From contig CAYFNF010000003.1 in NCBI GenBank assembly GCA_964344485.1, positions 148,467 to 212,466 on the forward strand: a stretch of DNA of 64,000 nucleotides. The letters are read 5' to 3'. The DNA is from an uncultured Gammaproteobacteria bacterium. GTDB lineage: Bacteria > Patescibacteriota > Patescibacteriia > UBA9570 > XYC2-FULL-38-9. Below the pieces are notes generated by a model. That model did not search any database. It worked only from the letters and a program-made list of their open reading frames with translations, and was not told the origin of the DNA. Position numbers and translations under genes: made by a program. Positions 9,926 through 11,320 of the stretch are shown here, in pieces (the first letter of the stretch is position 1; the number at the start of each line of letters is the position of its first letter).

Positions 9926-11320
9926 TTAATAATCCTTTAACTTATTCATGGCTTGATGCTCTTTGATAGTCTGGAGCGCTTTAGCTTCAATCTGTCGAAT
10001 ACGCTCACGCGTCACACCGAACTCTTGACCAACTTCTTCAAGTGTATGAGAGACACCATCAAGCAAACCGAACCGCATCTCAAGAATTTTCTGTTCACGC
10101 GGAGGGAGGTCTGCGATCGCTTCTGTGACATGGTCGCGCAACAACTGCAGTGAAGCGACTTGTGATGGACCAATGGTCTTTACATCTTCAATAAAGTCTC
10201 CGAGTGTAGAGTCCTCAGAGTCATCATCTCCCACAGAGGTCTCGAGAGAAACTGTATCTTGAGAAATCTTTATAATGTGAAATACCTTGTCTAACGGTAG
10301 GTCCATCTCAGCAGAGATCTCCTCTGGCAACGGCTCGCGTCCAAGGGTTTGGATTAAACTACGCTCAATCTGCTGGAACTTGTTGATGGTCTCCACCATG
10401 TGCACTGGAATACGAATGGTACGTGACTGGTCAGCTAACGAACGAGTAATCGCCTGACGGATCCACCACGTTGCATAGGTTGAGAACTTGTATCCTTTGC
10501 GGTAGTCAAACTTCTCGACAGCGCGGAATAGTCCGACATTTCCTTCTTGGATTAAGTCCAATAAAGACAGGGATCGTCCGGTAAACTTCTTTGCTATAGA
10601 AACTACGAGCCGCAAGTTCGCTTCAATCAATTTACGCTTGGCTTCAGGATCTCCCTGTTCTTTGAGTTTTGCGAGCTTGACCTCTTCTTCACTGGTCAAT
10701 AGTGCGACTTTACCGATCTCTCTCAAGTACATCTGAATAGAATCATTTGCAATATCTCCTAGATCAAACGGCTTCCCGCCGTGTTTTTTCTGTAAGACTT
10801 GATCTAGAATACCACTGCTTTTTTGAGTCTCTTCTTTCGGCGCGGTCTTTGCAGCCACCGCTGATAGTGTTGGGCTCCCGTCTGCTGCCACGACTTCTAC
10901 TCCCTGCTCTTCAGCAGTGTTTAACCATAGTTCAAACTCTTCGATATAGTCTTCAAGGTCCGCAAATATGTATAACAGCTCGGTCTCAGTTAAAAAACCG
11001 CGAGACCGTCCTTTTACAATTAAAATATTGGCCTTTTCCTCGGGAAAGTCCTTTTTGACATATCGCTTCCGTGACGCTACTTTCTTTGCTGCGGGTTTTT
11101 TAGCAGCGGATTTCTTTGCTGCGGGCTTCTTCTTTGCTGTAGTTTTCTTTGGCGCAGCTTTCTTCTTTGCTGCGGGCTTCTTCTTTGCTGTAGTTTTCTT
11201 TGGCGCAGCTTTCTTCTTGGCCGCAGTCTTTCGTGTGGCCTTCTTTGCTGCGGGCTTCTTCTTAGCAGCGGTCTTCTTTTTTGTGGTTGTCTTCTTTTTG
11301 GCTGTTGCTTTTTTTGGCAT
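9926..11320 (-). CDS. rpoD: RNA polymerase sigma factor RpoD (sigma-70) with Lys/Ala-rich N-terminal extension
   Basis: Region 2 ([31 protein letters not shown]), region 3, region 4 ([24 protein letters not shown]); N-terminal about 90 aa is AKKK/PAAKK repeat; immediately downstream of dnaG. Confidence 0.9.
11060..11320. repeat. 51-bp tandem DNA repeat (two perfect copies at about 11115-11216 plus degenerate flanking copies) encoding [17 protein letters not shown] units of RpoD N-terminus
   Basis: Exact 51-nt duplication visible in sequence; lower-complexity GC[TA]GC[GA]AA periodicity around it. Confidence 0.8.

What the first reader, a model, noticed from the sequence alone, without database searches (positions are those of the whole stretch)
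9926..11320. Sigma-70 (RpoD) carries a histone-H1-like Lys/Ala/Pro N-terminal extension encoded by perfect 51-bp tandem repeats
The first about 90 residues are (A/T/P)KKK-type repeats ([17 protein letters not shown] x2 exact, more degenerate copies) replacing the usual acidic region 1.1. The exact DNA duplication indicates recent repeat expansion and length polymorphism. A basic DNA-binding tail on the primary sigma factor is unusual and may tether RNAP to the nucleoid.
Basis: seen in the sequence. Interest (0 to 1): 0.55.

Follow-up and report, generated by a model that had tools for sequence, protein, structure and literature searches.

The report
Lysine-rich disordered tail on RpoD
The housekeeping sigma factor of this candidate-phyla-radiation bacterium starts with an 84-residue, histone-H1-like lysine/alanine tail. 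The tail is real, but it is standard for the phylum and has known counterparts in actinobacterial sigma factors, so it is only modestly new.

Summary
ORF 9926..11320 (-) encodes a 464-aa group-1 sigma factor (RpoD) just downstream of dnaG. Its first 84 residues are K/A/T/P-rich (36 K, no D/E, net +38). Two exact adjacent 51-bp copies (11117..11218) encode [17 protein letters not shown] twice.

The tail must be translated. The only in-frame start before codon 144 is the ATG at 11320, which has an AGGA 6 nt upstream.

- The tail does not replace region 1.1. A conserved, acidic, confidently folded sigma-1.1 domain follows it (aa ~85-150).
- The tail is not unusual for this lineage. All 108 aligned Patescibacteria RpoD homologs carry one (25-97 aa, 38% K, ~1% D/E, median charge +24), whereas Firmicutes relatives start directly at sigma 1.1.
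- Tail length varies by in-frame indels between near-identical proteins, so repeat slippage and length polymorphism are supported across the clade.
- Precedents exist: M. tuberculosis SigA, Streptomyces HrdB and, as reported, B. pertussis RpoD.

The likely function is non-specific electrostatic binding of DNA. This is inferred, not shown. In M. tuberculosis the basic part of the equivalent extension is dispensable. I rate it a new member of a known kind, of moderate-to-low interest.

The parts
9926..11320 (-). rpoD: 464-aa group-1 (primary-type) sigma-70 family factor
   Evidence: ORF list. Pfam regions 1.2, 2, 3, 4. Best NCBIfam models are RpoD equivalogs, though below their curated cut-offs. 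Foldseek top hits are SigA/RpoD chains. The '[12 protein letters not shown]' rpoD box is visible in the sequence.
11069..11320 (-). Polycationic N-terminal tail, aa 1-84 (36 K, 2 R, 0 D/E; net +38; pI 12), predicted disordered
   Evidence: Composition. AlphaFold2 10-residue block pLDDT 31-47 for aa 1-80. Weak compositional match to Pfam HC2, 21.8 bits against a cut-off of 40. Six strict and 13 relaxed matches to the published lysine-repeat motif.
11117..11218 (-). Two exact head-to-tail 51-bp copies (plus 5 nt of a third at 11112..11116), each encoding [17 protein letters not shown] (aa 35-68)
   Evidence: TRF 100% matches. Exact pattern search gives 2 matches against 0 expected. Translation.
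10871..11068 (-). Junction motif RY..FP plus sigma region 1.1 domain (aa 85-150), acidic (net -7), folded
   Evidence: Pfam Sigma70_r1_1 at aa 99-165, 21.9 bits against a cut-off of 22.5; 82 of 108 homologs match, best E 5e-11. pLDDT ~95 for aa 91-140, with helices 94-107, 112-118 and 126-138. Profile A2 hits sigma 1.1 of C. difficile SigA at E 3e-4, and T. maritima 2k6x and E. coli sigma70 aa 4-58 above significance.
10754..10870 (-). Low-confidence linker between sigma 1.1 and 1.2 (aa 151-189)
   Evidence: pLDDT below 50 for aa 155-186. The stretch aligned to query aa 151-185 varies from 20 to 48 aa among homologs.
10646..10744 (-). Sigma region 1.2 (aa 193-225)
   Evidence: Pfam PF00140, E 4.8e-14.
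10418..10630 (-). Sigma region 2 (aa 231-301)
   Evidence: Pfam PF04542, E 5.1e-24.
10160..10393 (-). Sigma region 3 (aa 310-387)
   Evidence: Pfam PF04539, E 4.1e-19.
9959..10120 (-). Sigma region 4 (aa 401-454)
   Evidence: Pfam PF04545, E 3.4e-18.
11327..11330 (-). AGGA Shine-Dalgarno-like site 6 nt upstream of the rpoD ATG, overlapping the last codons of dnaG
   Evidence: Sequence ...GTTAGGATAACGTATG. The same AGGATAA dnaG end lies upstream of the rpoD ATG in relatives L082 and L085.
11324..13114 (-). dnaG (primase), immediately upstream; its stop is 3 nt from the rpoD ATG
   Evidence: Pfam DnaG zinc ribbon, DNAG_N, Toprim, DnaB_bind. dnaG-rpoD adjacency with 1-15 nt gaps is conserved in L081, L082 and L085.

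Best explanation
This is the housekeeping sigma factor (RpoD/SigA type) of a Patescibacteria (CPR; closest named relatives are Candidatus Kerfeldbacteria) genome. It lies in the conserved dnaG-rpoD arrangement and is probably translationally coupled to dnaG.

Shown: the architecture is an 84-aa intrinsically disordered polycationic tail, then a conserved RY..FP junction, a folded acidic sigma 1.1, a linker, and sigma 1.2-2-3-4 with no non-conserved insertion. The tail is translated. It is a lineage-wide character of Patescibacteria RpoD. It evolves quickly by in-frame slippage of short lysine-codon repeats, and the exact 51-bp duplication here is the latest such event. Composition is held (about 40% K, almost no acidic residues), while sequence and length are not.

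Inferred: the tail acts as a sequence-independent polyelectrolyte that binds DNA (or another polyanion), as H1 C-terminal tails and actinobacterial lysine repeats do. It turns an acidic sigma (pI 5.2) into a basic one (pI 9.7). That would raise non-specific affinity of sigma or holoenzyme for the nucleoid and could aid promoter search or stabilise initiation complexes. It sits next to sigma 1.1, which occupies and then leaves the downstream DNA channel.
For: Identity and start. The only in-frame start before codon 144 is the ATG at 11320, with AGGA 6 nt upstream; any later start would delete sigma 1.1.

Sigma 1.1 is retained.

Lineage-wide tail: 108 of 108 aligned homologs have 25-97 aa before sigma 1.1, with 37.7% K, about 1% D+E, median charge +24 and 0.42 charge per residue. 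Net protein charge is positive in 96% although the rest of the protein has a median charge of -12. Named CPR genomes (Falkowbacteria, Saccharibacteria, Moraniibacteriota, Kaiserbacteria, Paceibacterota) have the tail. Firmicutes and other relatives start at sigma 1.1.

Fast in-frame length change with a constant core: P0099 and P0105 have 100% identical cores but tails of 56 and 50 aa; P0063 and P0076 have 97% identical cores but tails of 57 and 34 aa. Against the query, tail identity is 37-54% while the rest is 79-82%. Relatives' tails carry degenerate tandem repeats whose periods are all multiples of 3. The same tailed proteins were assembled independently from 3 to 6 samples.

DNA-binding analogy: the tail satisfies the K1-2(A/T/N)3-5 lysine-repeat motif, which is enriched in DNA-binding proteins and stabilises TopA-DNA complexes. 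pI shifts from 5.19 to 9.67.
Against: No binding or activity data exist for any CPR sigma factor. In the best-studied analogue, M. tuberculosis SigA, deleting the first 42, 92 or 132 residues (which includes the basic part) did not measurably change promoter affinity, in vitro transcription or complementation; the critical part was the acidic stretch 132-179. The Pfam HC2 match is below threshold, so the H1 likeness is compositional only. Only one other weakly similar K/A stretch occurs in this 64-kb window, in ribosomal protein S6, so a genome-wide habit cannot be judged here. The copy number of the exact repeat rests on a single assembly.
Confidence: 0.6

Rival explanations
1. The tail works mainly within or between proteins rather than on DNA. 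It would be a cationic partner for the acidic sigma 1.1 or for acidic RNAP surfaces. In that role it would tune autoinhibition of free sigma, ejection of sigma 1.1 from the DNA channel, or holoenzyme recycling.
For: The tail is fused directly to acidic sigma 1.1 (net -7) through a conserved RY..FP junction. Across 108 homologs, tail charge correlates negatively with sigma 1.1 charge (Spearman -0.33, p 4e-4, not corrected for phylogeny). In M. tuberculosis the N-terminal extension sets steady-state transcription rate and the response to CarD and RbpA without changing apparent promoter affinity.
Against: The tail charge (+11 to +40) far exceeds the sigma 1.1 charge (0 to -13). The correlation is weak and may only reflect relatedness. 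The M. tuberculosis effects map to the acidic segment, not the basic one.
Confidence: 0.2
2. The tail is a tolerated low-complexity expansion with no specific function. Slippage-prone AAG/AAA-rich DNA at a permissive N-terminus drifts in length.
For: Sequence and length turn over rapidly, an exact recent duplication is present, and only composition is conserved. The basic N-terminal part of M. tuberculosis SigA is dispensable.
Against: The tail is present in 108 of 108 homologs spanning several CPR classes, never shorter than 25 aa, with about 1% acidic residues and a tight charge density. It is absent from the nearest non-CPR relatives. Such long-term retention with constrained composition argues for selection.
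Confidence: 0.1
3. The tail binds another polyanion, such as RNA, ribosomes or polyphosphate, or it drives condensate formation rather than tethering to DNA.
For: Polylysine-type disordered regions bind any polyanion. CPR ribosomal protein uS19 is reported to carry an alanine- and lysine-rich extension. S6 in this window has a charged C-terminal extension.
Against: No direct evidence. The documented roles of equivalent lysine repeats are in DNA binding.
Confidence: 0.07
4. The repeat region is untranslated because the start is mis-called, or the exact 51-bp duplication is an assembly artefact.
For: There is only one assembly of this organism. No same-species contig was found for comparison.
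Against: No alternative in-frame start exists before codon 144, and the ATG has an SD-like site right after the dnaG stop. Homologous tails are in frame in all relatives. The duplicated block is 102 bp in total, and short-read assemblers tend to collapse such repeats rather than create them (general knowledge). Without one copy the tail would still be 67 aa.
Confidence: 0.03

Closest known systems
Mycobacterium tuberculosis primary sigma factor SigA (N-terminal extension of ~205 aa)
   Same: It is a group-1 sigma with an extreme N-terminal basic, A/K/R/T/P-rich disordered segment (aa 1-102), followed by an acidic segment and then region 1.2. This was checked against PDB SEQRES 7kif_F. The order basic, acidic, sigma 1.2 is the same. 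The extension is functionally important overall.
   Different: The M. tuberculosis tail is less lysine-dense and richer in R, S and G. Its acidic part is described as entirely disordered and non-homologous to region 1.1, whereas here a folded sigma 1.1 domain is kept. The basic part of M. tuberculosis SigA is dispensable in the assays done. The CPR version has not been studied.
Streptomyces coelicolor HrdB lysine repeats, and the lysine-repeat motif K1-2(A/T/N)3-5 of actinobacterial TopA, HupS and Ku
   Same: The repeat chemistry is the same; even the unit KKTTA is shared. HrdB is also a primary sigma. The motif is enriched in DNA-binding proteins and shown to stabilise TopA-DNA complexes.
   Different: In HrdB the repeats lie after the sigma-1.1-like N-terminus, between it and region 1.2. 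Here they lie in front of sigma 1.1. The CPR tail is denser (K2-3 plus 3 neutral residues, with P). [quoted passage not shown]
Histone H1 C-terminal domain and chlamydial Hc2 (Pfam PF07382)
   Same: Composition is K/A/P/T-rich, the segment is disordered and the charge density is very high. There is a weak Pfam HC2 match.
   Different: The HC2 score is 21.8 bits against a gathering threshold of 40, and only 6 of 108 homologs match at all. There is no H1 globular domain. The resemblance is compositional or convergent, not homology.
Firmicutes SigA (B. subtilis or C. difficile type)
   Same: It is the closest core architecture: sigma 1.1, a short linker and sigma 1.2-4 without the large non-conserved insertion. 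NCBIfam PRK09210 aligns aa 93-464 to positions 12-368 of 370. The top structural hit is 9a58_A.
   Different: Firmicutes proteins begin directly at sigma 1.1 with no polycationic tail.

Membership tests
Group-1 (primary, RpoD/SigA) sigma-70 family | Regions 1.2, 2, 3 and 4 present in order | tested here: met
   Pfam hits with E-values from 5e-14 to 5e-24. Foldseek hits to SigA/RpoD chains with E down to 2e-23.
Group-1 (primary, RpoD/SigA) sigma-70 family | Region 1.1 present (it distinguishes group 1 from groups 2-4) | tested here: met
   The query scores 21.9 bits, just under the gathering threshold of 22.5. However, 82 of 108 orthologs match PF03979, best E 5e-11. AlphaFold2 gives pLDDT ~95. 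The domain profile hits sigma 1.1 of 7l7b_F at E 3e-4, and 2k6x_A and E. coli sigma70 above significance.
Group-1 (primary, RpoD/SigA) sigma-70 family | Reaches the curated RpoD equivalog score | tested here: not met
   The best NCBIfam RpoD models score below their cut-offs: 452.7 against 555, 438.5 against 572, and TIGR02393 at 348.8 against 354. This is expected for a divergent phylum. RpoD models are still the top hits.
Group-1 (primary, RpoD/SigA) sigma-70 family | Located in the dnaG-rpoD (macromolecular synthesis) arrangement | tested here: met
   dnaG ends 3 nt upstream. The same adjacency is found in three relatives.
Group-1 (primary, RpoD/SigA) sigma-70 family | It is the essential housekeeping sigma of the cell | not testable with these tools
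   Only 64 kb of the genome is available, and there are no expression or genetic data.
Lysine-repeat proteins sensu Strzalka et al. 2017 (PMC5714199) | Multiple consecutive K1-2(A/T/N)3-5 units | tested here: met
   Six strict matches, the same number as the HrdB stretch tested, and 13 when P/S and K3 are allowed.
Lysine-repeat proteins sensu Strzalka et al. 2017 (PMC5714199) | The repeats confer DNA binding | not testable with these tools
   This needs EMSA or anisotropy with and without aa 1-84.
Histone H1-like nucleoprotein Hc2 (Pfam PF07382) | Score at or above the Pfam gathering threshold | tested here: not met
   21.8 bits against 40. Only 6 of 108 homologs give any match.

The most novel reading that the evidence does not exclude
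Across the whole Patescibacteria/CPR radiation the housekeeping sigma factor has been converted from an acidic to a basic, H1-tailed protein. It would then double as a nucleoid-associated factor. The tail would keep sigma or holoenzyme constitutively on DNA and compensate for the sparse repertoire of transcription factors and nucleoid proteins in these reduced genomes. Slippage-driven changes in tail length would tune global transcription between strains.
Probability: 0.15. Interest if true: 0.6.

Novelty: new member of a known kind. Interest (0 to 1): 0.35.

Why it matters
If the tail binds DNA, free sigma and holoenzyme in CPR bacteria would behave differently from the E. coli paradigm, in which acidic sigma 1.1 keeps free sigma off DNA. 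That would bear on how organisms with very few regulators find promoters. The phylum-wide distribution also shows that lysine repeats on sigma factors are not restricted to GC-rich Actinobacteria, as was suggested. I found no paper in the searchable library that describes the CPR distribution. For this particular locus the result is mostly a clarification. It is the ordinary RpoD of its lineage with a typical, if long, tail and one recent in-frame duplication.

Tried and rejected
1. Mis-called start or untranslated repeat: rejected, because there is no alternative in-frame start before codon 144, an SD-like site is present, and tails are in frame in all relatives.
2. The tail replaces region 1.1: rejected.
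3. Homology to chlamydial Hc2 or histone H1: rejected, because the score is below threshold and the match is compositional only.
4. The 51-mer is a dispersed or mobile repeat: rejected, because it has only the two adjacent copies in the window.
5. dnaG-rpoD read-through fusion, since the two genes share a frame separated by TAA CGT: rejected as coincidence, because relatives have 1-, 8- and 15-nt gaps in other frames.
6. Check of copy-number polymorphism: the exact protein is not on record in the contig index, and neither the genome scan nor the metagenome scan returned the same species; best identities were 59-81%. This could not be tested.
7. Literature searches for CPR or Patescibacteria sigma tails returned nothing relevant. 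A single-sequence PDB search with the sigma 1.1 segment was not significant, so a profile was used instead.
8. A genome-wide habit of K-rich tails: only 3 of 150 ORFs in the window have any K-dense segment, and only RpoD has an H1-like tail, so 64 kb is not enough to judge.

Full report
OBSERVATION. The minus-strand ORF 9926..11320 encodes a 464-aa protein. Pfam finds sigma-70 regions 1.2 (aa 193-225), 2 (231-301), 3 (310-387) and 4 (401-454), with E-values from 5e-14 to 5e-24. The best NCBIfam models are RpoD equivalogs, although all score below their curated cut-offs; for example TIGR02393 scores 348.8 against 354. That is expected for a divergent phylum. Residues 1-95 contain 39 K, 24 A, 11 T and 8 P, with net charge +39. 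Tandem Repeats Finder reports a 51-bp unit, 2.1 copies, 100% identical, at 11112..11218, flanked by degenerate 15- and 18-bp periods. The 51-mer occurs exactly twice, adjacent, at 11117..11167 and 11168..11218. It occurs nowhere else in the window, and none was expected by chance. Each copy encodes [17 protein letters not shown].

IS THE TAIL TRANSLATED? The ATG at 11320 is the only in-frame ATG, GTG or TTG before codon 144, so any later start would remove the conserved sigma 1.1 domain. The ATG lies 3 nt after the dnaG stop (TAA CGT ATG), with AGGA 6 nt upstream. In three relatives rpoD also starts 1-15 nt after dnaG, and in L082 and L085 the same AGGATAA end of dnaG is present. The upstream in-frame stop belongs to dnaG and lies before the ATG.

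ORGANISM AND CONTEXT. The window is 45.8% GC. The closest database proteins are 62-81% identical over the local alignment that covers most of the query. Where named, they come from Candidatus Kerfeldbacteria and other Patescibacteria/CPR groups. dnaG (11324..13114, minus strand) is a complete primase. Other neighbours are ordinary: an HD-domain protein, tRNA-Asn, a DUF5655 protein, an ABC transporter and a phosphoribosyltransferase.

REGION 1.1 IS NOT REPLACED. Pfam Sigma70_r1_1 matches aa 99-165 at 21.9 bits, against a threshold of 22.5. The same model matches 82 of 108 aligned homologs, best E 5e-11. AlphaFold2, run with the 108-sequence alignment, gives 10-residue block pLDDT of 31-47 for residues 1-80 and ~95 for residues 91-140, with helices 94-107, 112-118 and 126-138 and two short strands. 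A profile of this domain (A2) hits the N-terminal sigma 1.1 position of C. difficile SigA (7l7b_F, E 3e-4). With E-values above significance it also hits the T. maritima sigma 1.1 NMR structure 2k6x_A and residues 4-58 of E. coli sigma70. The domain is acidic, with net charge -7 here and a median of -7 across homologs. So the architecture is: basic tail, RY..FP junction, sigma 1.1, linker, sigma 1.2-4.

THE TAIL IS A LINEAGE-WIDE CHARACTER. In alignment A1 (108 homologs), every sequence has 25-97 residues (median 54) ahead of sigma 1.1. These residues are 37.7% K, 14% A, 10.5% T, 7.8% P, 5.7% R and about 1% D+E. Median net charge is +24 and charge density is 0.42 per residue. The window's tail (84 aa, +38) is near the upper end. 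The rest of the protein has a median charge of -12, yet 96% of the full proteins are net positive. Here the pI is 9.67 with the tail and 5.19 without it. Among species-level genome hits, RpoDs from Falkowbacteria, Saccharibacteria, Moraniibacteriota, Kaiserbacteria and Paceibacterota have the tail. RpoDs from Bacillota and other non-CPR relatives begin directly at sigma 1.1. A few CPR entries have very short tails or none.

EVOLUTIONARY DYNAMICS. Against the query, tail identity is 37-54% while the rest of the protein is 79-82% identical. Pairs with nearly identical cores differ in tail length by in-frame indels. P0099 and P0105 have 100% identical cores and tails of 56 and 50 aa. P0063 and P0076 have 97% identical cores and tails of 57 and 34 aa. 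P0039 and P0048 have 98% identical cores and tails of 67 and 55 aa. The tail DNA of three relatives carries degenerate tandem repeats with periods of 12, 15, 18, 21, 30 and 33 bp, all multiples of three. Identical tailed proteins were assembled independently from 3 and 6 contigs in different samples. The exact 51-bp duplication in this window is therefore best read as the most recent slippage event in a region that expands and contracts continually under selection for composition. Whether its copy number is polymorphic in this species could not be tested, because no same-species sequence was found.

COMPARISON WITH WHAT IS KNOWN. Strzalka et al. 2017 (PMC5714199) define lysine repeats as K1-2(A/T/N)3-5. 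They show that these repeats stabilise Streptomyces TopA on DNA and find them enriched in DNA-binding proteins, including HrdB. They note B. pertussis RpoD as one of the few cases outside Actinobacteria and suggest a link with GC-rich genomes. The tail here matches that motif six times strictly and 13 times with P/S allowed.

I checked the actinobacterial sequences against PDB SEQRES records. S. coelicolor HrdB (8k60_F) has a sigma-1.1-like N-terminus, followed by a basic stretch that ends in AKKAAAKKTTAKKATAKKTTAKKAAAKKTTAKK, then an acidic stretch and region 1.2. M. tuberculosis SigA (7kif_F) has a basic A/K/R/T/P-rich segment at aa 1-102, then an acidic segment at aa 103-200, then region 1.2.

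Functional data exist only for M. tuberculosis. Deleting 205 residues lowers the steady-state Vmax by about two orders of magnitude and changes the response to CarD and RbpA (PMC11888270). Deleting the first 42, 92 or 132 residues is tolerated in vitro and in vivo, with no significant change in promoter affinity; the critical segment is the acidic 132-179 (PMC10011835). The HC2 (chlamydial H1-like) Pfam match is sub-threshold and compositional. Searches of the held library found no description of the CPR sigma tail. One paper notes an A/K-rich extension on CPR ribosomal protein uS19.

MECHANISM. Shown: a translated, disordered, polycationic tail precedes a retained sigma 1.1, and its composition is conserved across the lineage. 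Inferred: the tail binds polyanions electrostatically and without sequence specificity. DNA is the most likely target, by analogy with lysine repeats and H1 tails. This would raise the non-specific DNA affinity of sigma and holoenzyme. Because the tail is attached to sigma 1.1, it could contact DNA near the downstream channel when sigma 1.1 is displaced.

The main rival is an intramolecular or RNAP-directed charge interaction that modulates sigma 1.1 behaviour. Tail charge and sigma 1.1 charge are weakly anticorrelated (rho -0.33, p 4e-4, not corrected for phylogeny), which gives this rival some support. A purely neutral expansion is unlikely given 108 of 108 retention and about 1% acidic residues. 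The M. tuberculosis data caution that a basic sigma tail can be dispensable under laboratory conditions.

VERDICT. I class it as a new member of a known kind, namely primary sigma factors with lysine-repeat disordered extensions. The CPR-wide distribution in a moderate-GC genome is a small but apparently undocumented point. Interest is 0.35.

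Noticed in passing
window 11618..11646 (-): A near-consensus sigma-70-type promoter-like site (TTTACA, 17 nt spacer, TATAAT; 11 of 12 matches) lies inside the 3' end of dnaG, about 300 nt upstream of the rpoD ATG. It recalls the internal rpoD promoters within E. coli dnaG. The overall count of promoter-like sites in the region is not above the shuffled expectation.
   Followed up: no
window 11318..11326 (-): dnaG and rpoD are in the same reading frame, separated only by TAA CGT. Relatives have 1-, 8- and 15-nt gaps in other frames, so this looks coincidental rather than a read-through fusion.
   Followed up: yes
window 11045..11068 (-), aa 85-92: A motif R-Y-(V/K)-x-x-x-F-P joins the tail to sigma 1.1. 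F and P are at least 90% conserved in the CPR homologs, and the motif is absent from the C. difficile SigA sequence aligned. Its function is unknown.
   Followed up: partly
window 11051..11320 (-): Lysine codons in the first 90 codons favour AAG over AAA (26 to 13), unlike the rest of rpoD (15 to 13) and dnaG (20 to 28). The longest A-run is 7. This may reflect avoidance of slippery poly(A) tracts, but the numbers are small.
   Followed up: partly
window 36711..37376 (-): Ribosomal protein S6 (Pfam domain at aa 26-115) has an N-terminal acidic lead and a C-terminal extension of about 100 aa with mixed charge. The extension includes a [12 protein letters not shown] stretch.
   Followed up: partly
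window 9241..9915 (-): A 224-aa protein directly downstream of rpoD has an N-terminal transmembrane-like helix and two copies of a Cys-rich module, each ending in ...C(W)xxxxxxC(I/M)T(L/M)(D/E)EYK. It has no Pfam match.
   Followed up: no
window 7328..8551 (-): A 407-aa signal-peptide-like protein without a Pfam match has a very lysine-dense segment (KIKKKKHLKVKKKKKKSAK) followed by a basic C-terminal region. The composition differs from the RpoD tail.
   Followed up: no
window 14671..23764 (-): Two adjacent giant ORFs. One is 1179 aa with no Pfam hit. The other is 1849 aa with an ABC1 atypical-kinase domain near the C-terminus and a weak M48 peptidase match near the N-terminus.
   Followed up: no
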